DNA of 56,129 nucleotides. Source: Candidatus Parcubacteria bacterium (lineage in GTDB: Bacteria > Patescibacteriota > Patescibacteriia > PEXW01). Shown here piece by piece: positions 2,151 through 52,911 of the stretch; the first letter of the stretch is position 1; each line of letters opens with the position of its first letter. The stretch spans positions 1-56,129 of the forward strand of contig QZJU01000008.1 of the NCBI GenBank assembly GCA_003597955.1, written 5' to 3'. Under the pieces are notes generated by a model. It did no database searches, was not told the origin of the DNA, and saw only the letters and a list, made by a program, of their open reading frames with translations. The position numbers and the translations under genes are program-made.

Positions 2151-2567
2151 ATGAACAAAAACAAAGGTTTTAGCATGATCAGCGTCGTTTTAACAAGTTT
2201 GATTTTCTTACTGGTGATTTTTTTTGGTTTAAGGATAATCGGCTCTGAACGAGCCAAAGCCCGGGACGCGCAAAGGGTGGCGGACATGGCTCGTTTGCAG
2301 GTTGGTTTCTTAATGCTTTACAACCGGACCGCCTCCTATGCCGCGGCTGCGCAAAACGGTTGCGACCAGGCCGGCAAGCCGGTTCGTGTTTGTAATTTAG
2401 CTCAGGATTTTCCAGAAGTTAAAAATTTCAAAGATCCGCGTGGTGGGGAATATACAATGAGTAAAGTTCCGGATGCGAATTCTTATGAAATTTCTTTTGA
2501 GCTGGAAGTCGGTGCCACGGGCTTGAGCAAGGGTAAACACACCCTCACGCCCGCGGGGATAAAGTAG
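2151..2567 (+). CDS. Pilin-like protein (prepilin-type N-terminus, no Glu+5)
   Basis: MNKNKG|FSMISVVLTSLIFLLVIFFG followed by ERAKARDAQRVADM, the same post-helix motif as the first pilin ([14 protein letters not shown]). Confidence 0.6.
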   Translation: MNKNKGFSMISVVLTSLIFLLVIFFGLRIIGSERAKARDAQRVADMARLQVGFLMLYNRTASYAAAAQNGCDQAGKPVRVCNLAQDFPEVKNFKDPRGGEYTMSKVPDANSYEISFELEVGATGLSKGKHTLTPAGIK

Positions 2568-2637: not shown

Positions 2638-3405
2638 ATGAACATCATAATTTATATCTTTACCTTTCTTTTCGGCGCTTGCGTCGGCAGTTTTTTGAAT
2701 GTGGTGATTTATCGCCTGCCCCGGAAACGAAAATTTTTGGATTTCCAACAAAGGTCAAAATGCCCCAGGTGCCGGCACCTTTTAAGCTTCTGGGATTTAA
2801 TTCCGGTTTTCAGTTTTATTTTTTTAAAAGGCAAATGCCGGTTCTGCCGCAAAAGGATCAGCTGGCAGTACCCGCTAGTGGAATTAATGACCGGCTTGAT
2901 TTTCGTCTTGATTTATTGGCAGTACGGCCTGGCTTGGCAAAGCTTGATTGGCCTTATTGGCGTAAGTGTTTTAATCGTTCTGGCTTTTATTGATGGCTTG
3001 CATAAAATCGTACCCGACCAAATCAGTCTGCCGGCGATCGCCATAATTTTTTGCCTGCAGATTTTGGTTAACCCCGGAGAATACCTTAGTTTAATTTTAG
3101 GCGGGATTTTCGGCGCGACCTGGTTCTGGCTGCAATGGTTAATTTCCAAAGGTAAATGGGTTGGCAGCGGCGACATCCGTTTAGGCGCGCTTTTGGGCGT
3201 TTTCCTGGGCCTGGGCAGCGCGCTCTTGGCCATTTTCAGCGCTTATATCATTGGCAGCCTGTGGGCAATTCAGCTTTTAATTCGGGGTAAAGTGCGCTTG
3301 AAAAGCCAGTTACCTTTTGGGATTTTTTTGGGGATTTTGGGCATAGTTTGCTTTATTTTTGGGCCTGAAGTGGTATCCTGGTATAGGGAGTTAATTGGAT
3401 TGTAA
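2638..3405 (+). CDS. pilD: Prepilin peptidase (A24 family, PilD-like)
   Basis: N-terminal Cys motif CPRCRHLL...CRFCRKRISWQYPLVELMTG, multiple TM helices, conserved GSGDIRLGALLG region. Confidence 0.85.
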   Translation: MNIIIYIFTFLFGACVGSFLNVVIYRLPRKRKFLDFQQRSKCPRCRHLLSFWDLIPVFSFIFLKGKCRFCRKRISWQYPLVELMTGLIFVLIYWQYGLAWQSLIGLIGVSVLIVLAFIDGLHKIVPDQISLPAIAIIFCLQILVNPGEYLSLILGGIFGATWFWLQWLISKGKWVGSGDIRLGALLGVFLGLGSALLAIFSAYIIGSLWAIQLLIRGKVRLKSQLPFGIFLGILGIVCFIFGPEVVSWYRELIGL

Positions 3406-3458
3406 TTTTGAAAAAACATTTACCCCGTACAATTTTTTGTTAAAAGTGACTTTTTTGA

Positions 3459-3564
3459 CCCCGCACCACTTTTCATAAACAGAACTTAATATTTGACCAT
3501 GGATTTTCACCCGAAAAAATTTCCTCCTCAAAAAGAAAGTCCTTTGTTAAAAAGTGGTGCGGGA
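3459..3564 (+). repeat. Hairpin leader module copy 1 (arms 3459-3475 / 3548-3564, 72-nt loop)
   Basis: Left arm CCCCGCACCACTTTTCA, right arm TAAAAAGTGGTGCGGGA (15/17 complementary). The loop contains the start of the 3493 ORF. Confidence 0.85.
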
Positions 3565-4410
3565 TTTACCTTTATCGAAACTCTGGTGGCTTTGTCGGTC
3601 TTGATGATTTTGCTTGGTTTGATTTTGGCCACCTACCGTCGGGGAAATGAGGACAGTATTTTGAACCGAGAAATTACATTACTAATGAGCCGATTTAGAT
3701 TAGCTCAAGAACAAACCGCTGGCGGAACGGTTGGTCGATATTGCGAACAGCCATATTACGGCATTTCCTGCCAAACCGACTCGAATTGTCCTGGGGGGTA
3801 TGCGTGTCGAAGCGCTGACGCCCCAAAAGGCGGGTATGTGATGGCTTTTAATTGCGATCCAAAACCAGAATCCGGAGCGCAATGGGGTTGGGGTTTTGAT
3901 TACCCTAAAATTGGTGATGTAAGCAAAGCTAATACAACCCCGTATTTCCTTTTTGGGGAAAGAGTTTCTTGTGACAGTAATTGTTATTCTGGTAATGATA
4001 ATAATTGGGTTTATGGGTTGGCTGACGAAAAAACTTCGCTTTTTAGTCGTATTGTGGGCGATACGGTGGTAAGCACTTTTCAACTTGACAACCGCGCGAT
4101 TTTTAAGGATTTGCAAATAATTTCTTCAAACCAGGAAAAGTATTGGTGTAATTCCGCACTGCCTTGGCGAGTCGTGCCCGTACCCAGTGATTATCCCTTG
4201 ATCGCCACAGTTCGTTTTAAACCGTCCGATGGTCGGCAGATTGAAATAACCAATAACGTTAGCATAAAGACTCCTAGCGGTTATGATTGGACAAAAGTTG
4301 AAGTCATGTTCGGCTTGCGGAGCCGAAATACAGATTGTCAGGTTGTCGCTTTTAGCCGCGAAGGCGTAGTTAGCAAGTATCTTGATACCAATTGCAGTTT
4401 TGCAAATTAA
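3493..4410 (+). CDS. Large prepilin-like protein, paralog 1 (long leader, G|FTFIE)
   Basis: MTMDFHPKKFPPQKESPLLKSGAG|FTFIETLVALSVLMILLGL. Track start is TTG 3493; an in-frame ATG lies at 3499. N- and C-terminal thirds are shared with ORFs 4832 and 6288. Confidence 0.7.
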   Translation: MTMDFHPKKFPPQKESPLLKSGAGFTFIETLVALSVLMILLGLILATYRRGNEDSILNREITLLMSRFRLAQEQTAGGTVGRYCEQPYYGISCQTDSNCPGGYACRSADAPKGGYVMAFNCDPKPESGAQWGWGFDYPKIGDVSKANTTPYFLFGERVSCDSNCYSGNDNNWVYGLADEKTSLFSRIVGDTVVSTFQLDNRAIFKDLQIISSNQEKYWCNSALPWRVVPVPSDYPLIATVRFKPSDGRQIEITNNVSIKTPSGYDWTKVEVMFGLRSRNTDCQVVAFSREGVVSKYLDTNCSFAN

Positions 4411-4515
4411 TCCCGTACCACTTTTCATTAACAGACCTTAGTATTTACCATGAATTTTCACCCAAAAAAATTCCCTCCTCAAAAATCAAACCCTTTGTTG
4501 AAAAGTGGTGCGGGG
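4411..4515 (+). repeat. Hairpin leader module copy 2, carrying an orphan leader (ATG 4450) with no pilin body
   Basis: Arms TCCCGTACCACTTTTCA / TGAAAAGTGGTGCGGGG. The loop encodes MNFHPKKFPPQKSNPLLKSGAG, then the frame runs into GIY-YIG upstream sequence. Confidence 0.8.
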
Positions 4516-4537
4516 CTAACCATGTTAATATTTTATC

Positions 4538-4786
4538 ATGCACTACGTATATTTATTGACCAATCGGATAAATCAAACAATTTACATAGGCTCAACAAAT
4601 AACCTAAAGAGGCGGATTCAAGACCATAATAAGGGTTTGATATTTTCAACAAAAAGATATTTACCTTGGAAATTAATTTATTATGAAGCATATTCCGATG
4701 AAGCCTTAGCTCGAAGGAGAGAAAAGCGACTGAAATATCATGGCAATTCAATTCGTGAATTAAAAAAACGAGCAGGAATAACTTAA
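4538..4786 (+). CDS. Small GIY-YIG nuclease (COG2827 / YhbQ-like)
   Basis: YVYLLTNRINQTIYIGSTNNLKRRIQDHN...KRLKYHG, i.e. GIY-YIG core (YVY...YIG), conserved Arg and Glu positions. 82 aa single-domain form. Confidence 0.85.
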   Translation: MHYVYLLTNRINQTIYIGSTNNLKRRIQDHNKGLIFSTKRYLPWKLIYYEAYSDEALARRREKRLKYHGNSIRELKKRAGIT

Positions 4787-4798
4787 TTAATGGGTTTA

Positions 4799-4903
4799 CC
4801 CCGCACCACTTTTCACTAACCATCTAATTACTTGACTCAAGAACATTCACCAGAGAAATATCCAAAACCTAAAAAACGCCTTTTGTTGAAAAGTGGTGCG
4901 GGG
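4799..4903 (+). repeat. Hairpin leader module copy 3 (arms 17/17 complementary, 71-nt loop, loop type 2)
   Basis: CCCCGCACCACTTTTCA at 4799-4815 and TGAAAAGTGGTGCGGGG at 4887-4903. Confidence 0.9.
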
Positions 4904-5863
4904 TTTACTTTCATCGAAACTTTGGTCGCCATAGGCATTCTTTTGGCTTTGCTGGCTGTGGTCTTGGCCAATTACCGTCGGGGCAATGACGACAGCGTGT
5001 TAAATCGGGAAGTTAGCCTGATGATGTCGCGGGTCAGGTATGCCCAAGAACTGACTTCAGCCGGAACTATAAGCAAGCATTGTCAGGCACCGCATTACAA
5101 CAAGCAGTGCAGTTCCGATGCTGAATGCACAAGTTTTCCCGGCACAGGCCTAAAGGGTTGTCAGCCAAAGCATTGCAGCTTAACTACTGGAACAACTTGT
5201 GCTTCCGATGTAGACTGCCCCGGCGGTGAAAAATGCATATCCGCGACCTTAACACCCGAAGGCGGATATGTGATGGCTTTTAATTGCAAGCCGGATTATG
5301 CAAATTATCCATGGGATTATTATGCAAATTACCCCCAAATTGGGTTGGGTCCAATCCCATACTTTCTCTTTGCTGAGCGTATTGATTGTAAAAACGATTG
5401 TTATGTCAGATTTAATACTTCTTGGGTCTACGATAAATCTGACGGGATAATCAGTTTTTATTTAGCAAACCCTTTTCCGCCCGGAGCTAATCCAAAAGGC
5501 GAGACCGTGGTGGAAATTTTTAAACCTTCACGCCAGATTGTCTTAAGAGATATTCAGCTAATCTCGGGTGTAGATAAATATTCCTGTCAGACGGGTTCTC
5601 CCTGGCGTAATCGGACAATCGCCGGCAAGACCATCCCAGCAGATTATCCTTTGCAAGCTACAGTGAATTTTAAAACTCCTGATGGCCGAAAGTCGATGTT
5701 GACAGACAATATTAGCAAAACCACTCCTGCCGGGTTCGAATGGACGAAGTTAGAGGTTATGCTGGGTATAAAAAACCGCACTACGGATTGCCGGGTGGTA
5801 AGCATTACCAAAGACAGCGTTATCAGCCAGAGCCTTGACGAGAATTGCAGTTTTAGCTCTTAA
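4832..5863 (+). CDS. Large prepilin-like protein, paralog 2
   Basis: TTG start; ...KKRLLLKSGAG|FTFIETLVAIGILLALLAVVLANYRRGN. Cys-rich variable middle; C-terminus ...TDCRVVSITKDSVISQSLDENCSF is shared with the paralogs. Confidence 0.7.
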   Translation: MTQEHSPEKYPKPKKRLLLKSGAGFTFIETLVAIGILLALLAVVLANYRRGNDDSVLNREVSLMMSRVRYAQELTSAGTISKHCQAPHYNKQCSSDAECTSFPGTGLKGCQPKHCSLTTGTTCASDVDCPGGEKCISATLTPEGGYVMAFNCKPDYANYPWDYYANYPQIGLGPIPYFLFAERIDCKNDCYVRFNTSWVYDKSDGIISFYLANPFPPGANPKGETVVEIFKPSRQIVLRDIQLISGVDKYSCQTGSPWRNRTIAGKTIPADYPLQATVNFKTPDGRKSMLTDNISKTTPAGFEWTKLEVMLGIKNRTTDCRVVSITKDSVISQSLDENCSFSS

Positions 5864-5968
5864 TCCCGCATCACTTTTCACTAACCATCTAATTACTTGA
5901 CCCAAGGACATTCACCAGAGAAATATCCAAAACCTAAAAATCACCTTTTGATGAAAAGTGGTGCGGGA
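5864..5968 (+). repeat. Hairpin leader module copy 4, orphan type-2 leader (TTG 5897) with no pilin body
   Basis: Arms TCCCGCATCACTTTTCA / TGAAAAGTGGTGCGGGA. The terminal T1/A17 change is compensatory. Confidence 0.8.
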
Positions 5969-5990
5969 TCCATCATTATTATTTTTAAAA

Positions 5991-6240
5991 ATGTATTACG
6001 TTTATTTATTAATAAGTAGTAAGAGACGGACAATATACATCGGCTCTACAAATAATTTTAAGAAAAAGAATTAAGGAACATAATAAGGGACTAGTTTTTT
6101 CCACCAGAAGGTATATGCCATTGAAATTGTTCTATTATGAAGTATATACAGACGAAAAAGCCGTCCGACAAAGAGAAAAAAGTTTGAAATATCACGGTAA
6201 TTCAGTCAAGGAATTAAAAAGGAGAGTTGGTATATCTTAG
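5991..6240 (+). pseudogene. GIY-YIG nuclease pseudogene (single frameshift)
   Basis: Reads MYYVYLLISSKRRTIYIGSTNNFKKKN then stop. The +1 frame continues RKRIKEHNKGLVFSTRRYMPLKLFYYEVYTDEKAVRQREKSLKYHGNSVKELKRR, collinear with the intact copy at 4538. Confidence 0.75.
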
Positions 6241-6253
6241 ATCTATGGGTTTA

Positions 6254-6359
6254 CCCCGCACCACTTTTCATTAACAGACTGTAAATTTTGACCATGGATT
6301 TTCACCCGAAAAAATTCCCGACTCAAAAAGAAAGCTCTTTGTTGAAAAGTGGTGCGGGG
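6254..6359 (+). repeat. Hairpin leader module copy 5 (arms 17/17, 72-nt loop, loop type 1)
   Basis: CCCCGCACCACTTTTCA at 6254-6270 and TGAAAAGTGGTGCGGGG at 6343-6359. Confidence 0.9.
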
Positions 6360-7319
6360 TTTACTTTGATTGAAACCCTTGTTGCGACCGGGATACTATT
6401 GGGTTTATTGGCCGTGGTGCTGGCCAATTACCAAAGGGGCGCTCAAGAGAGCGCTTTACATAGAGAAGCTGAATTATTTATGTCAAATATCCGTTTGGTC
6501 CAGGAGCAAACTGCCGCTGGTCAAATCGTTAATTATTGCTTGCACTATGTGGGCGCTGATTGTTTAACTGGATGTTCGGGTTATTCTTGCAGTCCTAAGC
6601 AAGAAACGCCTAAGGGTGGTTTTGGGCTTTTGGTCGGGTGTCAGCTAAATAGCGAGCCCGGCTGGGATCAGCCCTGGATTATTTATGGCGCAAATAATTC
6701 CTATCCTTCTCAAAATTCCACGAAAAAACAGGCTTATTATCTTTTTTCTGATAACCGCGCATGCTGGAATAATACGGGAACCGATTACTGTTGTTACCCC
6801 CTAACCAATTTTAGCTGTATCGGTTATGACGAAGGAACTGGCGACGCAGCTTCGGGTTCAGATGGCATCGTCACCACTCGACAATTTACTTTACTAAAAG
6901 GTGATACCCTAGAAAGAGAGCATGTTTTAGATAAGCAAATAGAATTTAAAGATTTAAGGCTCACGCGATATGTTCAGACGACCGGGAGTTTAAAGACTTA
7001 TTCTTGCCGTTCAGTTCATCCCGATAACCATACCCCTTGGCGAAATTTAAAGGTTCCCCAAACAAATTCTATGGTTATCAGTAATTATCACCTTGCAGCT
7101 TTGTTAAGATTTTTACCGCCCAACGGTCGTAAAGTTGTCATTTCCGACAATATTGCGGATTACCCACCAGATGCGGCAGGTCAACCAGATAAAAACAATC
7201 CTTGGTTAAAGGCGGAAGTTATGCTGGGCATAAAAAACCGCGCTACGGATTGCCGGGTGGTGAGCGTTAGCAAAGAGGGAGTAATCAGCCAGTCAGTTGA
7301 TTCAGACTGTGCTTTTTAG
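6288..7319 (+). CDS. Large prepilin-like protein, paralog 3
   Basis: MTMDFHPKKFPTQKESSLLKSGAG|FTLIETLVATGILLGLLAVVLANYQRG. C-terminus ...TDCRVVSVSKEGVISQSVDSDCAF. Confidence 0.7.
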   Translation: MTMDFHPKKFPTQKESSLLKSGAGFTLIETLVATGILLGLLAVVLANYQRGAQESALHREAELFMSNIRLVQEQTAAGQIVNYCLHYVGADCLTGCSGYSCSPKQETPKGGFGLLVGCQLNSEPGWDQPWIIYGANNSYPSQNSTKKQAYYLFSDNRACWNNTGTDYCCYPLTNFSCIGYDEGTGDAASGSDGIVTTRQFTLLKGDTLEREHVLDKQIEFKDLRLTRYVQTTGSLKTYSCRSVHPDNHTPWRNLKVPQTNSMVISNYHLAALLRFLPPNGRKVVISDNIADYPPDAAGQPDKNNPWLKAEVMLGIKNRATDCRVVSVSKEGVISQSVDSDCAF

Positions 7320-7331
7320 TAAAGTTAGTGT

Positions 7332-8345
7332 GTGAAACCTAAGATTCGACGGGCAAAAAAACCAAAGAAAATTTTTAAAGGCGCGGCCCTGCTGGAGTCG
7401 GTTATTGCCATTGGCGTCATCATGACCGGCGTAGTCGGTTCTTTGGTTCTGATCAACACCACCATCAAACTTGGCCGGACCAACCAAGACCGGATTATTG
7501 CCCAAAATCTGGCTCGGGAAGGAATTGAGCTGGCATATGGTTTACGAAACTCCGCGACTTTGGTCCACACTGAAGATTCTACAGTTTCCTGGGATTCGTA
7601 TTTGTATAAGTTTACATTGAAATCGGGAAGCTACGACACTTTGTATGATTTAGGCACTGGCAATTATGATGCTGGAACTTGCGTCACCATTGCCGGCGGT
7701 GATGCCATTTTGGATATGTGTGACATTCAGGTTTTGTTATTACATTTATACGAAGGCGGCCCATTGCCTTCGATGTGTAACACCATTCCCAATGGCGGTA
7801 GCAATCCTTCCCCGGACGCCAATGGTTGTGATTTTAACAACGACGGCGTAACCGGAATTTTGGATGTGACATTCATGATCTCCTCATTTTATAAAGAATC
7901 ATACCAGTTTTCCGCTGGCTATCCTGTTTTGTCGACAAAATTTCAGCCCAACGCACAGCTAGTTTTTTATGATGTTCGTGACGGTGAGACTATAAATTTA
8001 AGTCAGATGTGGGACGATGCTCGCAGTCGGATACAGGTAAATAACGGCGCCTACGTGCAGAATGTGACCGAAGCCGGTAATACGCCGACCAAATTTTATC
8101 GAACCGTTATTATGCAGGAAGTATGCCGGGGCACTCAAAGCGGAAGCGAAGAGGCCGTTTTGGTGCCAACAGATTCAGTCTTAAATTGCTATGATTATGT
8201 GAAGGCGCAAGGTTGGTCAGATGCTGACGCTGGCACAATAAAAAAAGTTGGGGTTTTGGCTAATTCCGAAGTCCGTTGGCCAAGCCCAACCAGCGGGACT
8301 AAAGTTTTGTACCAAGAATATATTTATGACTGGCTTAACTTCTAA
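7332..8345 (+). CDS. Minor pilin-like protein (PilV-like N-terminus) with internal dockerin/EF-hand-like loop
   Basis: GTG start. KKIFKG|AALLESVIAIGVIMTGVVGSLVL prepilin-type signal. DFNNDGVTGILD matches the DxNxDGxxxxxD calcium loop of dockerin repeats. Confidence 0.6.
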   Translation: MKPKIRRAKKPKKIFKGAALLESVIAIGVIMTGVVGSLVLINTTIKLGRTNQDRIIAQNLAREGIELAYGLRNSATLVHTEDSTVSWDSYLYKFTLKSGSYDTLYDLGTGNYDAGTCVTIAGGDAILDMCDIQVLLLHLYEGGPLPSMCNTIPNGGSNPSPDANGCDFNNDGVTGILDVTFMISSFYKESYQFSAGYPVLSTKFQPNAQLVFYDVRDGETINLSQMWDDARSRIQVNNGAYVQNVTEAGNTPTKFYRTVIMQEVCRGTQSGSEEAVLVPTDSVLNCYDYVKAQGWSDADAGTIKKVGVLANSEVRWPSPTSGTKVLYQEYIYDWLNF

Positions 8346-8445
8346 CCCCGCACCACTTTTCATTAACAACCTTAATATTTGACCATGGATTTTCACCCGA
8401 AAAAATTCCCGACTCAAAAAGAAAACCCTTTGTTGAAAAAGGTGG
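8346..8445 (+). repeat. Hairpin leader module copy 6 (tandem duplicate, right arm truncated to TGAAAAAGGTGG)
   Basis: The 104-bp unit 8346-8449 repeats at 8450-8553. Its leader (TTG 8379) is orphaned and reads into the next left arm. Confidence 0.85.
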
Positions 8446-8449
8446 TTTA

Positions 8450-8554
8450 CCCCGCACCACTTTTCATTAACAACCTTAATATTTGACCATGGATTTTCAC
8501 CCGAAAAAATTCCCGACTCAAAAAGAAAACCCTTTGTTGAAAAGTGGTGCGGGG
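8450..8554 (+). repeat. Hairpin leader module copy 7 (arms 17/17, 71-nt loop)
   Basis: CCCCGCACCACTTTTCA at 8450-8466 and TGAAAAGTGGTGCGGGG at 8538-8554. Confidence 0.9.
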
Positions 8555-9322
8555 TTTACTCTTATTGAAGTCATCGTGGCTACTGCCGTTTTTTCTATGG
8601 CCATGGTTTTGGCCACCACAGTTTTCGTGGTTTTCCTGCAACAGCAAAGGCGCACAATCAATCAGCAGGAAATGCAGAATGACGCCCGGGCCGTGATGGA
8701 GGAAATCGCGCAAAAACTGCGAGAAGGCGTAGCTGACTATGCTTATTACGCCACGAATTTTAACCTAGCACCCCAAAAGCTTTTAAGCAGTTTGAACGGT
8801 TCGAATGATGAGTGTTTGGTGATTCGCGATGCGCTTAACGAGCAATATTTTTATCGCTTGGCAGGAGGCAAGATTCAGAAGTTTTCTACTTCGACGCCGG
8901 GCACTACTGCCTGCAGCACGATTGCCAACTGGTCGGATATTACACCCGCCTCTTTGACGGTTGAGGCATTTTCAATTTTTATTTCCCCTTCCCAAGATCC
9001 CTTTCAGGGCAAATCTTATAAGGCCTGCGGCAAGCCAGGTGACTTTTTGGATCCGCCGGATAACGACAAGTGTACAGATTGGGGAACTTTTTGCACCGTT
9101 GACGGAAACACCTGTGAATACCAAAAATTAACCAATAGCATTTTGACCTGCTATTGCACGCCCCAAAGGTTCGGCAATGTCGTTCCTTTGCATCCCAAAG
9201 TCACCATAAGCCTGAAAGTTTCCAGAGTTGCGGGTCAATTGACTTTAAGCGAAACTTACCAAACTACGATTACTAGCCGGATTTTCAAGAATTTCGATAA
9301 ATTAAACCGGTATGCGCCGTAA
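8483..9322 (+). CDS. Minor pilin-like protein (PilW-like) using the same leader module
   Basis: MTMDFHPKKFPTQKENPLLKSGAG|FTLIEVIVATAVFSMAMVLATTVFVVF. Cys-rich C-terminal half. Confidence 0.6.
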   Translation: MTMDFHPKKFPTQKENPLLKSGAGFTLIEVIVATAVFSMAMVLATTVFVVFLQQQRRTINQQEMQNDARAVMEEIAQKLREGVADYAYYATNFNLAPQKLLSSLNGSNDECLVIRDALNEQYFYRLAGGKIQKFSTSTPGTTACSTIANWSDITPASLTVEAFSIFISPSQDPFQGKSYKACGKPGDFLDPPDNDKCTDWGTFCTVDGNTCEYQKLTNSILTCYCTPQRFGNVVPLHPKVTISLKVSRVAGQLTLSETYQTTITSRIFKNFDKLNRYAP

Positions 9323-10583
9323 ATTCGCAAGAAACAAAAAATTTTTTAAAAGCCCAAACGGCGTGTCTTTGCTGGCGGCCTTATTGGTGATGTCGGTTGT
9401 CGTGGCTATCGGCATTACCGTCAGCACAATCGTGGTTTTTCAGGTTAAGGTCAATGCTGTGGTTTTTCAAGGCCATCAAAATTACTACATTGCGGAATCA
9501 GGCATTGAGCACGCTTTGAACGTCTTAAAAGAGAAAAAATCCGGGACGCTGGCCGCGGGTTTAACCGCGATCCAGACGGCAAATCCGTTCCCTGCCGGCA
9601 TTCCGGGCCAGGCGGATTTAACGCAAAGCATTGGTATAGCCGGCGGCGCGACCGTACCCACAGAATTAAAAGAAAATTCCAGCGTTTACATTGAGCTCTA
9701 TAATGTCGACGCCAGCATAACCCCAATTGCGCCGCAAACCCCAATCCTGTGCGTTTACGGTACAGGCAGTGGCGATGAAGTTTTGGAAGTGTCATGGGTT
9801 GCCTGGTCAGAAAGTTTGGAGATTTCCAATCCGCAAAAAACTCTGATTTCTCACACGAATTTCAGTCAAACAGCAAGTTGCGATGGGGGCGCCCATGATG
9901 GGCAGACTATAGACCTGACCAATTTTTTTCCGGCTTTTACACCAAGCGGTCAATTAGCCGGGTTCCGCATTAGGATTTCGGCCATTAAGCCCACTGCCAG
10001 TAGTCCCGGCGACGGTGCTGGCGATGTCAGTAATTTTGAGGTTTACACCAATCCTTCGAATTTAAGCACACAAATTCAAGTAAAGTCAGTCAGTAATACT
10101 GGCGGGCAAACCCAGGCTTTGATTGCGACTTTTCCGTGGTCAGAGCCGATTTCTTCATTTTTCGACTTCGTGATATTCAGTGGTGAAACTTTGAGAAAGG
10201 AAGTACCGGTTTCCATTGGTCAGAATGTTAAGAAATTCGGGCCATTTATCGTACAGGCCGGAACCAACGCCATTCCCGCAACCCCGTCAGACCCATTTGT
10301 CGGCTGTGATGCCAATCCTTGTGATTACTACATCAGACTTTTAAGCACTGGCACGCCCAGTCCATGGGGGACATTTCAAGTTACCACTTCGGGGCTAGGC
10401 ACGAACACAGTGATTGCAACCTCAAGTATCGCCAGCTGCATTTTACGCAATTCTTATACTTTTAGCGCGACCAGCGCTACCATAACTTTTCCAAGCCCTC
10501 TCCCGCCCTCGCTTTTCCAATACGAATTACTGTCAGAACCAACTTTTCGGGATACTAACGAAACTTATTGCCCGGGTAATTGA
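9312..10583 (+). CDS. PilX-like minor pilin / pilus-associated protein
   Basis: Basic N-terminus, then the hydrophobic helix GVSLLAALLVMSVVVAIGITVSTIVVF and YYIAESGIEHALNVL, resembling PilX N-terminal domains. Overlaps the previous ORF by 11 nt. Confidence 0.5.
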   Translation: MRRKFARNKKFFKSPNGVSLLAALLVMSVVVAIGITVSTIVVFQVKVNAVVFQGHQNYYIAESGIEHALNVLKEKKSGTLAAGLTAIQTANPFPAGIPGQADLTQSIGIAGGATVPTELKENSSVYIELYNVDASITPIAPQTPILCVYGTGSGDEVLEVSWVAWSESLEISNPQKTLISHTNFSQTASCDGGAHDGQTIDLTNFFPAFTPSGQLAGFRIRISAIKPTASSPGDGAGDVSNFEVYTNPSNLSTQIQVKSVSNTGGQTQALIATFPWSEPISSFFDFVIFSGETLRKEVPVSIGQNVKKFGPFIVQAGTNAIPATPSDPFVGCDANPCDYYIRLLSTGTPSPWGTFQVTTSGLGTNTVIATSSIASCILRNSYTFSATSATITFPSPLPPSLFQYELLSEPTFRDTNETYCPGN

Positions 10584-11522: not shown

Positions 11523-11694
11523 GCATACAAGAAATTTAGAAACCTTTCCATTTTTGTTAATAAGTCGTTTTTCTCACAAAAAAATTAGGCAGGTCGATAA
11601 AGTAGGTGAGCAAGCTCACCACCTACGCGCTCATTTCTGCAATCGGAGGATACTTTGGACAGGTTGCCTGCAAACTGTTGTGTGAATAAAGATT

Positions 11695-11825
11695 GGCGAG
11701 CAACCTGCTCGCCAAGCCGGCATGGCAGGCGGAGCTCGCCACCTACCAACTAAACAACACAGAGCACAAACTCTATTTTTTAACATGGTATATTATTAAC
11801 AGCGTAGGTGCAGAGCTTGCTCTGC
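11695..11825 (+). repeat. REP-bearing composite repeat, left copy
   Basis: Contains palindromes GGCGAGC-aacct-GCTCGCC and GCAGAGC-tt-GCTCTGC. About 85 percent identical by eye to 12291-12419. Further REP-like hairpin GTAGGTGAGCAAGCTCACCACCTAC at 11602-11626. Confidence 0.75.
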
Positions 11826-11849
11826 TGGGACTATAACTAAGATAAATTA

Positions 11850-12290
11850 ATGCCATTTAAAAAGTCAATTCGATTAACAAGTTTTGATTATTCGTCTGAC
11901 GGAGCGTATTTTGTGACCATATGTACTTTTCAAAAATCCAAATTCATTATTCCGGCATACGAAATAATTTTGAAACGTGAGTTAAGGGAATTAGAAATAC
12001 GTTTTCGAGGCGTAAAAATAGATTTTTTTGTTTTTATGCCAACTCATTGCCATATCATATTTGTTTTTCGCAACGCTGAAGTCGATTTGCCAAAAGTTAT
12101 TCAGGCATTTAAATCAATAACAACCTTAAAATTAAAGAAAGCTGGATTCCACGGCAGTTATTTTTGGCAGAAGAATTATTATGAACATGTAGTTAGGGAC
12201 GAAGAAGCTTTGTATAGAATCAGGGAATATATTAAATTAAATCCTGAAAGCGAAAGACTGTTAAATTTTAGCCAGTCAAAACACGATTAG
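11850..12290 (+). CDS. REP-associated tyrosine transposase (RAYT, IS200/IS605 Y1 family)
   Basis: HUH motif in FMPTHCHIIF and catalytic Tyr region WQKNYYEHVVRDE. 146 aa. Flanked by REP-like palindromes. Confidence 0.8.
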   Translation: MPFKKSIRLTSFDYSSDGAYFVTICTFQKSKFIIPAYEIILKRELRELEIRFRGVKIDFFVFMPTHCHIIFVFRNAEVDLPKVIQAFKSITTLKLKKAGFHGSYFWQKNYYEHVVRDEEALYRIREYIKLNPESERLLNFSQSKHD

Positions 12291-12419
12291 GTCAGCAACC
12301 TGCCCGCCAAGCCGGCATGGCAGGCGGGGCTGGCCACCTACTCATTAAACAACACAGGGCACAGACTAGATTTTGAACACGGCATATATAAAATTCAGTA
12401 GGTGCAGAGCTTGCTCTGC
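12291..12419 (+). repeat. REP-bearing composite repeat, right copy
   Basis: Direct repeat of 11695-11825, ending in the same GTAGGTGCAGAGCTTGCTCTGC. Additional related fragments lie at 12445-12522. Confidence 0.75.
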
Positions 12420-12530
12420 CAGCCCTATTAAGTAATAGTTTTAGACAGGCGAGCGAGCTGGCCACCTACCCAAATTAAACAGCAAAGGTTAGTTGCTCTG
12501 CTAACTGTTGCGTGAAAAAAAGAAATATAA

Positions 12531-22151: not shown

Positions 22152-22283
22152 AACGATTGGTTGAAAGGTTTATGTTTTTTGATTTTTGGATTTCCCTCGC
22201 CGCGGTTTTGGCAGTGAGGCCCTATTTCGCCCTTTTCATTCGGGCATAGAGTATGCTTGAACAAATTTTTTTCTCTGCTCGGG

Positions 22284-22357
22284 TCGGGGTGGCGGGACTT
22301 GAACCCGCGGCCTCATGCACCCCATGCATGCGCGCTAGCCAACTGCGCCACACCCCG
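22284..22357 (-). tRNA. tRNA-Pro (anticodon GGG), no encoded CCA
   Basis: Reverse complement folds as CGGGGTG-TG-GCGC-AGTTGGCTA-GCGC-G-CATGC-ATGGGGT-GCATG-AGGCC-GCGGG-TTCAAGT-CCCGC-CACCCCG-A, a standard cloverleaf with G37. Confidence 0.9.
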
Positions 22358-22750
22358 ACCCGAGCAGAGAAGTGTCTTTGCACCTTTGCGCCACACCCCG
22401 ACCTTAACTCAAAAAAAGCGCTAGACAACCGAGTTTGTCCCGCCGCATGGCAGTTCAATACCCCGATTGATGTCGTAAAATTATTTTACCGCCAAAGCGG
22501 CGGCTTTGTAAATTAGAAAGGCACTGAATTAATGTATAGTGCTTTCCTAATCCAGGAAACCGGCACAAAAAGCGGCGTCATGAGGACCTTTTTGAGTCGC
22601 TGGAGTGCGGGGATGGATGGAACCAAAAGAGAGAAGCCCCGGATGCAGCGAAGCGGAATCCGGGGAGCAGGTTAAATTTGATTTTTTTTGGCATTTTAGC
22701 TAATGTGACGCCGGAAATCGAACATTTTTAACTGAATATGGAGGATCAAG

Positions 22751-29619: not shown

Positions 29620-29728
29620 CCCCGCACCGCTTTCCAGCCGAATACTTTTTACCTGCTTACAGAATATTCAGCCTGGCAAATATCTTTTACGCTTAAATCC
29701 AAGACTTGAGTTGGAAAGTGGTACGGGG
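29620..29728 (+). repeat. Hairpin module copy 8 (non-pilin context, unrelated 75-nt loop)
   Basis: Arms CCCCGCACCGCTTTCCA / TGGAAAGTGGTACGGGG, pairing with one G-U and one C-A. Confidence 0.8.
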
Positions 29729-29729
29729 T

Positions 29730-29758
29730 TTGACGAAAAATTCCGGTTCTGTTATACT
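29730..29758 (+). promoter_or_regulatory. Candidate promoter of tuf
   Basis: TTGACG (29730-29735), 17-nt spacer, TATACT (29753-29758). The -35 box starts 2 nt after the hairpin module's right arm. Confidence 0.55.
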
Positions 29759-31022: not shown

Positions 31023-31054
31023 GCGCCCCGACCCCGTTAACGGGGTCGGGGCGC
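31023..31054 (+). terminator. Perfect 14-bp GC-rich hairpin after tuf
   Basis: GCGCCCCGACCCCG-TTAA-CGGGGTCGGGGCGC, followed by T-rich sequence. Confidence 0.7.
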
Positions 31055-45801: not shown

Positions 45802-45906
45802 CCCCGCACCACTTTCCAAATTAAACCTTAGGTTTAGTGTAAGGTTATTTGCCTAATAAATATTTTAGTACTAAATGTTGGCGTTTTGCTGGAAAGTGGT
45901 GCGGGG
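45802..45906 (+). repeat. Hairpin module copy 9 (non-pilin context, unrelated 71-nt loop)
   Basis: Arms CCCCGCACCACTTTCCA / TGGAAAGTGGTGCGGGG, 17/17 complementary. The left arm starts 2 nt after the DUF192 stop. Confidence 0.85.
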
Positions 45907-45935
45907 TTGACTGGCTTTCAGATTTTTGGTAAATT
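45907..45935 (+). promoter_or_regulatory. Candidate promoter of rplU
   Basis: TTGACT (45907-45912), immediately after the right arm, 17-nt spacer, TAAATT (45930-45935). Confidence 0.5.
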
Positions 45936-50796: not shown

Positions 50797-50872
50797 GCGC
50801 CTATAGCTCAATTGGCAGAGCAGGGGCCTTTTAAGCCCAAGGTTGGAGGTTCGATTCCTCCTGGGCGCACCA
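50797..50872 (+). tRNA. tRNA-Lys (anticodon UUU), CCA encoded
   Basis: GCGCCTA-TA-GCTC-AATTGGCA-GAGC-A-GGGGC-CTTTTAA-GCCCA-AGGTT-GGAGG-TTCGATT-CCTCC-TGGGCGC-A-CCA. One G-A mismatch at 27:43. Confidence 0.9.
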
Positions 50873-52309
50873 ACTAGAAAATGAGGCGCTTTGCGCCGCC
50901 ACAGCCCAGCCCAAATGGGCTTCAAATCGCAGCGTTTTGCCTTTCAAAAGAAAGTTCGAGCCGATATTTTTCATTGAATTCTTAATTTCCAAGAGGTCGC
51001 GCGAGATTGCGACTTTTTTGGCTTGCTTGCTTAGTAAAATGAATTCTCGCATGGGTTCGAGCCAAACCAAACCCTCGCCCCGGAGTTGAGCGAATTTTTC
51101 CTCAATTCTCACTTTTTCATTTACTAGGGTGTCTTTCTTGGATAAATACTCCGAAGTGGAAATAGATCGCTCTAGCTTTGCGTCTAAAAGATTGTCCAAT
51201 TTCTTTTCAACAACGATCAACGTATCTTTTTTCTCTTGGGCGAGGGCTTTAGTGGTTTGCTCATTACGTTCTTTTTCCGTATCTAGCTTCGCCAGCATTT
51301 TATCAGCCCAATCATCACGAATAGAATGGCTGGTTAAAGTCGCCCTCATTTGCTCAACCAGTGCTTCTTCACGCAAGAATTTAGTTTCGCATTTGCCTTT
51401 CTTCTTAGTGCAACGGTAGTACGTATGTCCTTTCTGGCTTTCAGCTGTAATGTAGCAGCCGCAAGAAGCGCATTTCATCAAACCAAGAAAGGCAAAGTTG
51501 TGTTTCTTTACTTCCCTCGCGCGACCTCGTTTACGCATCATCGCCCGGGCCTTATCAAATAAATCTCTAGAAATGAATGTGTCGTGGCTTCCTTGGTACG
51601 TTTCATCCCAGTAAGTGAACACGCCGACGTAAAAGGTATTTTTCAGCATGTTTTGCATCATACTGGCGGAAAACGGATGCCCCCAGTGGCTTTTAATTTT
51701 GGCTTTGGTATTGCACCATTTGGCAAGCGCATCTAGTGTCCAGTCGCCGGTTAAGTACATAGCGAAAATTTTCTTCACTATCTTGGCTTCTCGCTTTTCA
51801 ATCAGCACTTTTCTGCTCTTCGGGTCATTAAAGTAACCAAGTGGTGCCATAGACGGCCACTCACCACGGCGTAGTTTTTGTCTCAAGCCCCGTTTTACGT
51901 TTTCCGAGAGATTGTCCACGTAGTACTTGGATTGCCCAAAGGCAATATTCAGCATGAATTTCCCTTGCGGCGTGTTCTCAAACCAAAATGTGGGGAATTT
52001 CAGGTTTTGAATTTTATCCCTATCGGTCAGGTAAATGACCTGCCCACCGTCTACGGGGTTTCTAGCTAATCTGTCGGGGTGCCAGGCGATGATGCCATTG
52101 GCTTCGCCTTTTTCAATTCTCTTGAGCATCTCATTGAAGATTTTTCGCCCGGGTTCTTTGGCAGTTTTTGCCTCGCAGAGCGAGGCGACGATTTCAAGTT
52201 TTTCTTTGGCGGCAAATTCTTTTAATTCATCAATTTGAGATTCAATACTTAAAACCTGACGATCCTCCTCGTCAGTGGATTTTCTGGCGTAGAGAAAATA
52301 TTTATCCAT
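50831..52309 (-). CDS. Large serine recombinase 1 (resolvase/invertase catalytic domain + recombinase + zinc-ribbon domains)
   Basis: N-terminal YARKSTDEEDRQVLSIESQ (catalytic Ser context), DRLARNP, Cys cluster CASCGC...YYRCTKKKGKC, coiled-coil tail. The last 13 codons are antisense to tRNA-Lys. Confidence 0.88.
   Translation of the reverse strand: MDKYFLYARKSTDEEDRQVLSIESQIDELKEFAAKEKLEIVASLCEAKTAKEPGRKIFNEMLKRIEKGEANGIIAWHPDRLARNPVDGGQVIYLTDRDKIQNLKFPTFWFENTPQGKFMLNIAFGQSKYYVDNLSENVKRGLRQKLRRGEWPSMAPLGYFNDPKSRKVLIEKREAKIVKKIFAMYLTGDWTLDALAKWCNTKAKIKSHWGHPFSASMMQNMLKNTFYVGVFTYWDETYQGSHDTFISRDLFDKARAMMRKRGRAREVKKHNFAFLGLMKCASCGCYITAESQKGHTYYRCTKKKGKCETKFLREEALVEQMRATLTSHSIRDDWADKMLAKLDTEKERNEQTTKALAQEKKDTLIVVEKKLDNLLDAKLERSISTSEYLSKKDTLVNEKVRIEEKFAQLRGEGLVWLEPMREFILLSKQAKKVAISRDLLEIKNSMKNIGSNFLLKGKTLRFEAHLGWAVAAQSASFSSWCAQEESNLQPWA
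50867..50945. repeat. IR-A left copy (79 bp, begins with the tRNA 3' end GCACCA)
   Basis: Base-for-base reverse complement of 52376-52454, checked by hand. Confidence 0.9.
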
Positions 52310-52327
52310 ACCTTTGTAAAGTTAATG

Positions 52328-52358
52328 ATAAAGAGGGGGGAAAGTGCGCTTTTGGCCC
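52328..52358 (-). promoter_or_regulatory. Shared upstream motif, copy upstream of recombinase 1
   Basis: On the minus strand reads GGGCCAAAAGCGCACTTTCCCCCCTCTTTAT, 19-49 nt upstream of the recombinase 1 ATG. Near-identical motif at 52594-52623 upstream of the XRE gene. Confidence 0.5.
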
Positions 52359-52375
52359 CCTGCGCTAACGCGCAG

Positions 52376-52454
52376 GAAAGGCAAAACGCTGCGATTTGAA
52401 GCCCATTTGGGCTGGGCTGTGGCGGCGCAAAGCGCCTCATTTTCTAGTTGGTGC
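52376..52454. repeat. IR-A right copy (79 bp, ends with TGGTGC)
   Basis: Perfect reverse complement of 50867-50945. Confidence 0.9.
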
Positions 52455-52542: not shown

Positions 52543-52593
52543 AAAAACTGCCAAAGAACCCTAGAGGAAAAATATCGGCTCTCACTTTCTTTT

Positions 52594-52907: not shown

Positions 52908-52911
52908 ACCT

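What the first reader, a model, noticed from the sequence alone, without database searches (positions are those of the whole stretch)
3459..8554. Prepilin leader peptides are encoded inside a repeated ~105-bp hairpin module with 17-nt inverted arms
There are seven copies within 5 kb; coordinates are in the feature list. The left arm CCCCGCACCACTTTTCA begins 0-13 nt after the preceding stop codon. The right arm TGAAAAGTGGTGCGGGG is translated as (L)KSGAG, the residues just before the predicted prepilin peptidase cut G|FT(L/F)IE. The 71-72 nt between the arms contain the start codon and the rest of an unusually long (~24 aa) leader. That leader comes in two in-frame sequence types (MDFHPKKFPxQK... 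and TQEHSPEKYPKPKK...). Arms are 17/17 complementary in copies 3, 5 and 7. In copies 2 and 4 the differences are C>T in the left arm (giving G-U in a + strand transcript), plus a paired T1/A17 change in copy 4. That pattern favours an RNA helix that would sequester the start codon and leader. Alternatives are a micro-inverton ON/OFF switch for each pilin gene, or a mobile leader cassette that turns downstream ORFs into prepilins.
Basis: partly seen in the sequence, partly recalled or inferred. Interest (0 to 1): 0.8.

Follow-up and report, generated by a model that had tools for sequence, protein, structure and literature searches.

The report
Mobile hairpin element rewrites prepilin leaders
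The repeated 105-bp hairpin modules are miniature copies of a mobile DNA element, linked to a small GIY-YIG nuclease gene, that inserts at the codons for the prepilin cleavage site and replaces the pilin's leader peptide with one it encodes itself.

Summary
There are seven modules at 3459-8554, with 17-nt arms 71-72 nt apart, and the right arm is read as (L)KSGAG just before G|FT(L/F)IE.

The modules are not specific to pilins. Two more sit upstream of the tuf and rplU promoters in this window. More than 100 occur in other genomes, mostly Patescibacteria, including inside 23S rRNA genes.

They behave as insertions:
- 55 of 89 have identical 4-nt flanking repeats (TNNA, inside a GTNNAC-like target).
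- Removing the element plus one repeat restores canonical short prepilin starts (for example MNKRG|FTLIE) in about ten independent cases.
- One syntenic pair of loci shows the filled and empty states.

The same arms bracket an 81-86-aa GIY-YIG nuclease gene in 279-369-bp elements. About 90 public protein clusters are GIY-YIG-prepilin fusions joined by the arm-encoded K(S/N)GAG|FTLIE.

In the window, four modules are working leaders. Three are decaying older copies left upstream by repeated insertion at the same site, two of them separated from the working copy by GIY-YIG genes.

Arm pairing is kept by compensatory changes across the family, but without a sense-strand G·U bias. A pilin-specific RNA switch is therefore not supported. 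I found no prior description.

The parts
2638..3405 (+). Prepilin peptidase (PilD, peptidase A24). It would cut the module-encoded leaders after ...KSGAG.
   Evidence: Pfam A24_N_bact 1.8e-35 and Peptidase_A24.
3423..3450 (+). Decayed older mini-element (CCCCGTACAATTTT..TTAAAAGTGAC), preceded by TTTA.
   Evidence: Degenerate arm match; sequence.
3459..3564 (+). Module copy 1 (loop type 1), the working leader of pilin A. Left arm 3459-3475, right arm 3548-3564 with two G>A changes. ATG at 3499.
3499..4410 (+). Prepilin A. Leader MDFHPKKFPPQKESPLLKSGAG, then FTFIE.
   Evidence: ORF; N_methyl motif from residue 21; appears as database protein P0005.
4411..4515 (+). Module copy 2 (type 1), an older copy cut off from pilin B. 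Its frame runs into the GIY-YIG upstream region and stops. The left arm has two C>T changes.
4538..4786 (+). Intact 82-aa GIY-YIG nuclease gene lying between copies 2 and 3.
   Evidence: Pfam GIY-YIG 8.4e-19. Homologues at 55% identity or more are always next to or inside the same arms.
4792..4798 (+). GGG (interpreted as a right-arm remnant) plus TTTA, the left copy of the 4-nt duplication of copy 3. The right copy is at 4904-4907.
   Evidence: The same '..GGG TTTA + left arm' junction follows GIY-YIG genes in L085, L089, L091 and L100.
4799..4903 (+). Module copy 3 (type 2), the working leader of pilin B. Arms are perfectly complementary. Possible starts are TTG at 4832 or TTG just before the right arm.
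   Evidence: The public gene call P0007 starts at MLKSGAG.
4832..5863 (+). Prepilin B (..KSGAG|FTFIE).
5864..5968 (+). Module copy 4 (type 2), an older copy cut off from pilin C.
5991..6240 (+). Degraded GIY-YIG gene: two tblastn pieces in different frames, plus premature stops.
   Evidence: tblastn 62-65% identity in two pieces.
6254..6359 (+). Module copy 5 (type 1), the working leader of pilin C. Flanked by TTTA at 6250-6253 and 6360-6363.
6294..7319 (+). Prepilin C. Leader MDFHPKKFPTQKESSLLKSGAG, then FTLIE.
8346..8449 (+). Module copy 6 (type 1), the older member of a tandem pair. Its right arm is reduced to TGAAAAAGGTGG.
8450..8554 (+). Module copy 7 (type 1), the working leader of pilin D. 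Flanked by TTTA at 8446-8449 and 8555-8558.
8489..9322 (+). Prepilin D, a minor pilin whose only resemblance to pilins A-C is at the N-terminus (47% identity over 19% of the query).
   Evidence: N_methyl 1.8e-05; TIGR02532; precomputed PF27121.
29620..29728 (+). Non-coding module between fusA and tuf. Its right arm abuts the tuf promoter: -35 TTGACG at 29730-29735, 17-nt spacer, -10 TATACT at 29753-29758.
45802..45906 (+). Non-coding module 1 nt after the stop of a DUF192 gene. Its right arm abuts the rplU promoter: TTGACT at 45907-45912, 17-nt spacer, TAAATT at 45930-45935.

Best explanation
The module is a miniature, ORF-less member of a family of mobile palindromic DNA elements. These have 14-17-bp inverted-repeat arms and a variable loop of 8 to about 290 nt.

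Shown:
- The family inserts at G|TNNA|C sites and duplicates the central four bases.
- GGN TTY ACN, the codons for the prepilin cleavage site G|FT, fits that target, as does the promoter -35 box GTTGAC(A).
- An insertion into a prepilin gene separates the original start codon and leader from the mature part. The element's right end (..AAA AGT GGT GCN GGG) followed by the duplicated TTTA rebuilds ..KSGAG|FT.
- In every pilin-associated copy a start codon inside the element gives an open frame into the pilin.
- In this window, copies 1, 3, 5 and 7 lead into pilins A-D. Copies 2, 4 and 6 and a stub before copy 1 are older copies pushed upstream by repeated insertion at the same regenerated site.
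- The same arms bracket an 81-86-aa GIY-YIG nuclease gene in larger elements.
- That gene is often fused in frame through the right arm to the pilin.

Inferred:
- Translation starts at the element's start codon, and prepilin peptidase (2638-3405) cuts after the final Gly, so the pilin matures normally.
- In the fusions the nuclease itself acts as the leader that the peptidase removes.
- The GIY-YIG nuclease mobilises the family, possibly by restriction-enzyme-like staggered cuts at GTNNAC. Such cuts would let an element move only between sites with the same central bases.
- Adjacent arm-TTTA-arm junctions decay because perfect palindromes with short spacers are unstable.
- Arm complementarity is a requirement of the element itself (a DNA or RNA hairpin), not a pilin control device.
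For: Family and spread. A scan of GTDB representative genomes found 83 loci across many Patescibacteria lineages and a few other phyla.

Target duplication. 55 of 89 elements have identical 4-nt flanks, against 8.9 expected (maximum 20 in 2000 shuffles), and only 2 are purely inverted. G is the commonest base before the left repeat and C after the right repeat, each in 40 of 89.

Empty-site reconstruction gives canonical prepilin starts:
- L069 MNKRG|FTLIE, L073 MVNREQLNKG|FTLIE, L026 ..SAGQRG|FTMME, L085 MTGLTSRRG|FTLIE.
- L091 MPKKG|F.
- L119 MKG|F, L123 MENNQKTLTG|F, L131/L140 MSTKKG|F, L142 MKNKNLKG|F, L126 MKNKG|F.

Syntenic filled and empty loci. L147 has MNNRG|FTILE and MIGNKG|YTLIEM. 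At the orthologous genes, L131 has MSTKKGF-[arm-GIY-arm]-FTILE and MTGKTCKGF-[module]-FTLVEM. Uninterrupted homologues are P0137, P0139 and P0165.

GIY-YIG link.
- Every homologue examined at 55% identity or more touches the arms.
- A metagenome scan found 28 loci, many of them arm-GIY-arm units of 279-369 bp sitting at G|FT codons with TTTA or TTCA repeats.
- In the fusion search 113 proteins passed the E-value cut-off. By my count of the listed lengths and Pfam columns about 90 are long GIY-YIG proteins, and 42 carry both GIY-YIG and N_methyl.
- The junctions read K(S/N)GAG|FTLIE. A Pfam scan of the L131 fusion confirmed both domains.

Long-term function in the pilins. Orthologous pilins at 34-46% identity keep the module and the KSGAG leader. 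The ATG-to-arm stretch is 17 codons in nine copies from the window and three other contig sets (L085, L088, L089), with no stop codon.

Hairpin constraint. 95.2% of arm positions are paired and 10 of 17 pairs have changes on both sides, reached by 0 of 500 shuffles.
Against: No transposition or cleavage has been observed; mobility is inferred from comparisons.
- The 82-aa GIY-YIG protein has no recognisable DNA-binding domain, and no GIY-YIG enzyme is an established transposase.
- GIY-YIG could instead be a secondary parasite of the hairpin loops. Loops also hold REP-like hairpins, and one holds a tRNA gene.
- None of the 83 GTDB loci has a GIY-YIG gene directly next to its module.
- About a third of elements lack identical flanks, including copy 1 and the tuf and rplU copies of this window.
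- Which start codon the window's pilins use is unresolved. TTG, GTG or ATG always sits just before the right arm, and a weak promoter-like site lies inside type-1 loops.
- Codon-position statistics for the loop are weak: 193, 153 and 151 differences at positions 1, 2 and 3.
- Arms that stay perfect at orthologous pilins over deep divergence could also mean a local host function, which this model does not need.
Confidence: 0.8

Rival explanations
1. cis-regulatory RNA helix. The + strand transcript folds into the 17-bp stem, which encloses the start codon and leader and controls translation or stability of each pilin mRNA.
For: The modules fold far better than shuffled sequence, with z-scores of -4 to -8. 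The arms covary. In L085 a synonymous change in the right arm is matched by a change in the non-coding left arm. The arms remain perfect at pilins only 45% identical.
Against: The helix is common to the whole family, including promoter-proximal, rRNA and GIY-YIG-carrying copies. There is no sense-strand G·U excess: 3 G·U against 5 C·A in 34 oriented elements, and 4 against 3 in the window. Loop length ranges from 8 to 288 nt at pilin genes. The start codon is in the loop. Loops occur in both orientations relative to the adjacent promoter. No Rfam family matches. Template switching within quasi-palindromes can produce 'compensatory' changes without selection (general knowledge).
Confidence: 0.1
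2. Host-beneficial hairpin. The module serves as a transcription insulator or terminator, an mRNA 3' stabiliser or an RNase III processing site, and is spread by recombination. Its presence in pilin leaders is a by-product.
For: The modules sit directly after stop codons and directly before -35 boxes of highly expressed genes such as tuf, rplU and pilins. 35 arm ends abut a TTGAC box that is followed, 16-18 nt on, by a -10-like hexamer of variable quality. The arms are conserved while loops diverge. Inside 23S rRNA genes such stems would suit RNase III excision.
Against: This does not explain the 4-nt direct repeats, the intact ancestral leaders stranded upstream, the filled and empty orthologous sites, or the exclusive link with one GIY-YIG clade. 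No U-tract follows the stem. Divergent gene contexts also occur (based on crude gene calls).
Confidence: 0.1
3. The hairpin modules move independently by an unknown enzyme. The GIY-YIG gene is only a passenger or homing parasite that lodges in or beside them.
For: GIY-YIG genes occur both inside the arms and between two modules. Loops tolerate other cargo, namely REP-like hairpins and a tRNA gene. The GTDB loci show modules with no adjacent GIY-YIG gene.
Against: In compact 279-282-bp units the ORF starts 1 nt after the left arm and runs straight into the right arm, which looks like a co-adapted unit. Every close GIY-YIG homologue examined is attached to these arms. A compensated 1-nt insertion in both arms travels with a diverged GIY-YIG gene (L103).
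Confidence: 0.2
4. Micro-inverton. Recombination between the arms flips the 71-nt loop and switches each pilin gene ON or OFF.
For: Perfect inverted repeats flank a short segment that contains the start codon.
Against: No invertase lies near the cluster. Three assemblies of a related species show the same loop orientation. In the flipped state an ATG or GTG would still sit in frame before AAA AGT GGT GCG GGG (minus-strand translations), so flipping would not switch the gene off. The flanking direct repeats and empty sites point to insertion.
Confidence: 0.03

Closest known systems
[quoted passage not shown] Neisseria Correia elements
   Same: About 100 bp, terminal inverted repeats, short target duplications, many copies, mostly intergenic. 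They can supply promoters or become part of genes. Larger partners share the same ends.
   Different: The partner ORF is an 81-86-aa GIY-YIG nuclease, not a DDE, HUH, serine or tyrosine transposase. The target is a GTNNAC-like palindrome with a 4-nt duplication. The inner arm positions vary freely but stay paired, so pairing itself, not just a protein-binding sequence, is conserved.
Rickettsia palindromic elements (RPE), selfish palindromes inserted in frame in protein-coding genes
   Same: Palindromic elements of about 100 bp, translated as part of host proteins without destroying them.
   Different: RPEs add internal peptide segments at varied positions. This element hits one defined motif, the signal-peptide cleavage site, and replaces the N-terminal leader, which the host peptidase then discards. 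I detected no sequence relationship. This comparison rests on my own knowledge.
Homing endonuclease genes carried by group I introns or inteins (GIY-YIG family, e.g. I-TevI) and free-standing homing endonuclease genes
   Same: A GIY-YIG nuclease gene sits inside a highly conserved coding sequence and is arranged so the host protein still matures. The best NCBIfam hit of the window's protein is 'group I intron endonuclease', below its cut-off.
   Different: No intron or intein is present. If the host product is rescued, this would be by the prepilin peptidase cutting off a leader that contains, or has replaced, the nuclease. The element has inverted-repeat ends and target duplications, which homing does not produce. 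The protein has no DNA-binding extension.
REPIN-RAYT systems (REP doublets mobilised by a single-copy Y1 transposase)
   Same: Hairpin-forming doublets of about 100 nt, a small nuclease gene flanked by its own repeats, and many ORF-less copies.
   Different: The window contains a true RAYT (11850-12290) with its own GTAG..CTAC REPs, which are a different repeat family. The modules have no GTAG motif, their arms are not themselves palindromic, and they have target duplications.
23S rRNA intervening sequences excised by RNase III
   Same: The same arms bracket insertions inside 23S rRNA genes of Verrucomicrobiae and Nomurabacteria. A long terminal stem is the known RNase III substrate in such sequences. 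A 2024 survey reports non-intron, GIY-YIG-encoding and short ORF-less insertions in rRNA genes of Candidate Phyla Radiation bacteria (PMC11270868).
   Different: Excision was not tested here. In mRNA contexts, cutting the stem would destroy the leader coding region. I did not check whether the published rRNA insertions are the same family.

Membership tests
MITE (non-autonomous transposable element) | Small size with terminal inverted repeats | tested here: met
   Total length about 36-115 bp for ORF-less copies (about 105 bp in this window); 14-17-bp arms, 95.2% paired across 71 distinct arm pairs.
MITE (non-autonomous transposable element) | Target-site duplication | tested here: met
   55 of 89 elements have identical 4-nt flanks against 8.9 expected.
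MITE (non-autonomous transposable element) | Presence/absence at orthologous sites | tested here: met
   L131 (filled) against L147 (empty) at two adjacent pilin genes; about ten empty-site reconstructions.
MITE (non-autonomous transposable element) | A larger element with the same ends that encodes a recognised transposase | tested here: inconclusive
   Larger elements with the same arms exist, but they encode a GIY-YIG nuclease that is not a known transposase class.
GIY-YIG homing endonuclease gene | GIY-YIG catalytic domain | tested here: met
   Pfam PF01541, 8.4e-19.
GIY-YIG homing endonuclease gene | Residence in a self-splicing intron or intein, or free-standing insertion without target duplication | tested here: not met
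   No intron family was found by Rfam. The elements have inverted repeats and TTTA/TTCA duplications.
GIY-YIG homing endonuclease gene | Sequence-specific cleavage of the empty target | not testable with these tools
   Needs biochemistry.
Structured cis-regulatory RNA | Covarying helix | tested here: met
   10 of 17 pairs have changes on both sides.
Structured cis-regulatory RNA | Strand specificity (G·U tolerated, C·A avoided on the transcribed strand) and a constant gene context | tested here: not met
   C·A 5 against G·U 3 on the sense strand. Contexts include pilins, promoters, rRNA genes, RHS genes and a tRNA gene.
Inverton (invertible promoter or coding switch) | Nearby site-specific invertase, and both orientations observed | tested here: not met
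   No invertase lies in or near the cluster. Related assemblies show a single orientation. Read-level evidence cannot be obtained with these tools.
REP/REPIN-RAYT | GTAG-containing palindromic REP units flanking a Y1 transposase | tested here: not met
   The window's RAYT is flanked by different repeats (GTAGGTG..CACCTAC). No module arm lies near it.
Integron attC site | R''/R' core sites (RYYYAAC/GTTRRRY) and an IntI integrase | tested here: not met
   The flanks are mostly direct, not inverted. I compared the flanking GTNNAC sequences by eye with the core-site consensus recalled from memory. No tyrosine recombinase turned up among the window ORFs scanned.
Type IV prepilin (class III signal peptide) | Leader ending in Gly, then F-T-L-I-E and a hydrophobic helix; a peptidase A24 gene nearby | tested here: met
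   N_methyl/TIGR02532 hits start at residue 21. PilD lies at 2638-3405.

The most novel reading that the evidence does not exclude
This would be a new class of prokaryotic mobile element with two unusual properties. First, a minimal GIY-YIG nuclease, bracketed by hairpin-forming inverted repeats, moves by restriction-like cut-and-paste at GTNNAC sites. Second, it makes its insertions harmless by lodging in the cleavable leader of type IV prepilins. The nuclease is translated as the prepilin's leader and released in the cytoplasm by the host prepilin peptidase. That would be a third route, after introns (RNA splicing) and inteins (protein splicing), by which a homing-type nuclease gene can sit inside an essential coding sequence. 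The window's 105-bp modules would be its ORF-less derivatives.
Probability: 0.4. Interest if true: 0.95.

Novelty: new variant of a known kind. Interest (0 to 1): 0.85.

Why it matters
If this holds, four things follow.
- It explains the unusually long, oddly uniform '..KSGAG' prepilin leaders in Patescibacteria. It also explains why hundreds of database proteins named only 'GIY-YIG nuclease family protein' are really nuclease-pilin fusions.
- It gives the abundant small GIY-YIG proteins of these bacteria a concrete, testable role.
- It shows a mobile element rescuing its host gene by donating a replacement signal peptide, that is, coding sequence arising from a repeat element.
- It may account for some of the uncharacterised short and GIY-YIG-encoding insertions reported in rRNA genes of Candidate Phyla Radiation bacteria.

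For annotation, start codons and leader lengths of pilins in these genomes need to be re-read with the element in mind.

Tried and rejected
- Rfam at gathering and at permissive thresholds gave only two tRNAs and chance microRNA-like hits on the modules.
- Full-text searches for the arm sequence, for MITEs in Patescibacteria, for GIY-YIG with inverted repeats and target duplications, for GIY-YIG with Candidate Phyla Radiation, and for GIY-YIG with prepilin found no description of this element.
- RAYT as the mobilising enzyme: rejected, because the window's RAYT has its own GTAG REPs.
- GIY-YIG adjacency in the 83 GTDB loci: only three or four distant homologues, 1-2 kb away. The link appeared only when close homologues were followed.
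- Strand-specific G·U test: no bias.
- Codon-position test for translation of the loop: no third-position excess overall, and only a mild synonymous excess within the window.
- Promoter scan of the cluster: weak sites inside type-1 loops, not above background.
- Gene-context classification with crude ORF calls: all orientations occur, so it was uninformative.
- Considered from memory and dropped: DNA-uptake sequences (too few copies, always paired), integron attC sites, Xer/dif sites, tRNA-derived elements (ARAGORN found none).
- A derivation of the short type-1 loop from the GIY-YIG ORF by internal deletion is suggestive at best and is not claimed.

Full report
**1. The observation**

The 17-nt arm and its complement, allowing up to 3 mismatches, occur 17 times in the 56-kb window against 0.2 expected by chance. 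Seven modules lie between 3459 and 8554 with 71-72 nt between the arms. All fold far better than shuffled sequence, with z-scores of -5.2 to -7.9 for the six pilin-cluster copies folded. The right arm is read as (L)KSGAG directly before FT(L/F)IE in four ORFs, and a peptidase A24 gene lies just upstream. The two loop types are real.

- Copy 1 is 53 nt from the pilD stop.
- The right arm of copy 1 has two G>A changes.
- The right arm of copy 6 is truncated.
- Copies 2, 4 and 6 do not lead into a pilin.

**2. The module is not pilin-specific**

Two further modules with unrelated loops lie between fusA and tuf (29620-29728) and upstream of rplU (45802-45906). Their right arms abut good promoters: TTGACG-17-TATACT and TTGACT-17-TAAATT.

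A scan of one genome per GTDB species for the 12-nt arm cores, 65-95 nt apart, returned 83 loci. Many Patescibacteria lineages are represented, some genomes with 14 or more copies. There are also a few Thermodesulfobacteriota, Verrucomicrobiae, Gammaproteobacteria-labelled MAGs, an Arthrobacter and a cyanobacterium.

Loops are mostly unrelated between copies. A recognisable loop subfamily (CTAAGCAAATA...) is shared by Kerfeldbacteria, another Patescibacteria genome and a relative of this window's organism (L085). It occurs in both orientations relative to the adjacent promoter.

Some copies sit inside 23S rRNA genes: four Verrucomicrobiae species at one site, and three copies in a Nomurabacteria gene. 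One pair of arms encloses a tRNA gene.

**3. The modules are insertions**

- 55 of 89 elements carry identical 4-nt sequences on both sides (TTGA, TCAA, TAAA, TTTA, TTCA, TACA and others). The shuffle expectation is 8.9, the maximum in 2000 shuffles is 20, and only two cases are purely inverted.
- G is the commonest base before the left repeat and C after the right one. The target therefore looks like G|TNNA|C, and both junctions of an inserted element regenerate such a site.
- The prepilin cleavage codons GGG TTT ACN and the -35 box GTTGAC(A) both fit this target.
- Deleting the element plus one repeat restores canonical short prepilin starts in about ten independent contigs: MNKRG|FTLIE, MVNREQLNKG|FTLIE..QRG|FTMME, MTGLTSRRG|FTLIE, MPKKG|FTLVE, MKG|F, MENNQKTLTG|F, MSTKKG|F, MKNKNLKG|F and MKNKG|F.
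- One syntenic pair gives the classical filled/empty comparison at two neighbouring pilin genes: L147 is empty and L131 is filled.
- Uninterrupted homologues of the interrupted pilin exist as separate database proteins.

**4. The GIY-YIG connection**

In the window, an intact GIY-YIG gene (4538-4786) and a degraded one (5991-6240) each lie between an upstream module and '..GGG TTTA' plus the next module.

I followed the closest homologues, at 55-70% identity. Every one examined is attached to the same arms.
- Some are followed by '..GG(G) TTTA/TTCA-module-prepilin': L085-87, L089/90, L091/92, L098/99 and L100-102.
- Others are enclosed by the arms: L093-97 (L093-96 at the RFTG codons of an RHS gene fragment, L097 elsewhere in RHS repeat sequence) and L103-110. 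In L103-110 both arms carry a matching 1-nt insertion.

A homologue at 50% identity (L111) lacks the arms.

A metagenome scan for 'left arm, up to 30 nt, ATG TAY TAY GT' gave 28 loci. Many of these are compact arm-GIY-arm units of 279-369 bp. Most sit at G|FT codons of prepilin genes with TTTA or TTCA repeats and a stranded ancestral leader upstream.

Downstream of the nuclease ORF, the pilin is expressed in one of two ways:
- It restarts at an ATG that overlaps or follows the nuclease stop codon, as in MKAKSGAG|FTLIE.
- The nuclease ORF runs in frame through the right arm into the pilin.

A search with one such fusion returned 113 proteins. By my count of the listed lengths and Pfam columns about 90 are long GIY-YIG proteins, and 42 carry both GIY-YIG and N_methyl. 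In the sequences I retrieved, the junction reads K(S/N)GAG|FTLIE. Some also read through whole extra modules, with the left arm translated as GLPSTTF or PAPLF.

**5. Reading the window with this model**

- Copies 1, 3, 5 and 7 are the current leaders of pilins A-D.
- Copies 2, 4 and 6 and the stub at 3423-3450 are earlier insertions at the same regenerated GTTTAC site. They are now upstream and decaying: C>T changes in the left arms of copies 2 and 4, and a truncated right arm in copy 6.
- I infer that the consistent truncation of the arm that would otherwise face the next copy across only TTTA reflects the instability of perfect short-spacer palindromes.
- Orthologous pilins in other species (34-46% identity) keep one module per gene with a homologous type-1 loop. 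The ATG-to-arm length is exactly 17 codons in nine copies. The module-encoded leaders have therefore been functional for a long time.
- Other prepilin-like genes in the window (2151, 7332, 9312) have ordinary leaders and no module.

**6. The hairpin**

Across 71 distinct arm pairs, 95.2% of positions pair and 10 of 17 pairs show changes on both sides, a level reached by 0 of 500 shuffles. The three inner positions vary freely yet stay complementary. Variants coexist within single contigs.

Pairing is therefore a requirement of the element. It is not shown to be an RNA property. In 34 pilin-associated elements whose sense strand is known, mismatches are C·A 5 against G·U 3. In the window the split is 3 against 4.

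Template switching in quasi-palindromes could also keep the arms matched without selection; this point is general knowledge, not tested here. A DNA hairpin or cruciform recognised by the nuclease, or an RNA stem that lets RNase III remove rRNA insertions, both remain possible. I could not discriminate between them.

**7. What remains uncertain**

- Which start codon the window's pilins use. The options are the ATG or TTG in the loop, or the TTG just before the right arm; public gene calls differ. A weak promoter-like site lies inside type-1 loops, and codon-position statistics are weak.
- Whether the GIY-YIG protein is the mobilising enzyme or a passenger.
- The chemistry of movement.
- Why about a third of copies, including copy 1, tuf and rplU, lack matching flanks.

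**8. Comparison and novelty**

The modules meet the structural criteria of MITEs. They resemble Rickettsia palindromic elements in being translated. Their partner gene resembles homing endonuclease genes in sitting inside a conserved coding motif.

Three features have no counterpart that I know of or could find in the searchable literature:
- A GIY-YIG partner with inverted-repeat ends and 4-nt duplications.
- Targeting of the prepilin cleavage site.
- Rescue of the host protein through leader cleavage by the prepilin peptidase.

A 2024 survey noting non-intron GIY-YIG-encoding and short ORF-less insertions in rRNA genes of Candidate Phyla Radiation bacteria may have seen the same family in another context.

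**Verdict**

The RNA-switch interpretation is not supported. The 'mobile leader cassette' alternative is essentially right and leads to an apparently undescribed family of mobile elements.

Noticed in passing
window 11560-12480: A REP-associated tyrosine transposase (RAYT, 11850-12290; NCBIfam NF047646 1.2e-19) is flanked on both sides by GTAGGTG..CACCTAC hairpins. This is a separate REP/RAYT system in this genome (which I take to be Patescibacteria), unrelated to the modules.
   Followed up: partly
window 22268-22417: tRNA-Pro(GGG) (22281-22358, minus strand) lies inside a perfect 21-nt inverted repeat (22271-22291 / 22351-22371) that extends its acceptor stem. A third partial copy lies at 22394-22417. 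This may be a processing stem or the trace of a duplication or integration.
   Followed up: no
window 50797-56046: Two large serine recombinases (50831-52309, overlapping the 3' end of tRNA-Lys at 50797-50872, and 54604-56046) flank an Ltp-type lipoprotein gene (52912-53727). This is probably an integrated phage-like element at the tRNA gene.
   Followed up: no
window 31023-31054: A perfect 16+16-nt GC-rich palindrome (GCGCCCCGACCCCGTT/AACGGGGTCGGGGCGC) lies just after the tuf stop codon. It is terminator-like and not related to the module arms.
   Followed up: no
L131/L132, L140, L126; proteins P0130-P0242: About 90 public protein clusters are in-frame fusions of a GIY-YIG nuclease domain to many different type IV (pseudo)pilins. 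The junction ..K(S/N)GAG|FTLIE is encoded by the element's right arm. The few that carry a source name are labelled 'GIY-YIG nuclease family protein', 'putative endonuclease' or 'hypothetical protein'.
   Followed up: partly
L010, L013, L028, L049 (Verrucomicrobiae); L015 (Nomurabacteria); L038: The same arms bracket insertions inside 23S rRNA genes: one conserved site in four Verrucomicrobiae species, and three copies within the first 900 model positions in a Nomurabacteria gene. In L038 they enclose a tRNA gene (1431-1501).
   Followed up: partly
L002, L012, L025, L029, L055, L057 (Komeilibacteria MHKL01): The loops of many modules in this genome contain a second, nested hairpin, GTAGGGACAGGTTT(T)AAAACCTGTCCCTAC. 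It has the GTAG..CTAC ends typical of REP sequences, so the loops seem to be landing sites for another repeat family.
   Followed up: no
L093-L097, L121, L127: Arm-GIY-arm elements are inserted in an orphan RHS toxin cassette at the conserved RFTG(H/Q)ELDEET core codons (CGT TTT ACC) in L093-96, L121 and L127, and elsewhere in RHS repeat sequence in L097. This is a second conserved protein motif that fits the target.
   Followed up: partly
window 2151-2567, 7332-8345, 9312-10583: Three further prepilin-like ORFs in the same cluster have ordinary leaders of their own (MNKNKG|FSMISV; 17-aa basic leaders ..KIFKG|AALLE and ..KSPNG|VSLLA) and no module. Module-bearing and module-free prepilins therefore coexist in one operon.
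   Followed up: no
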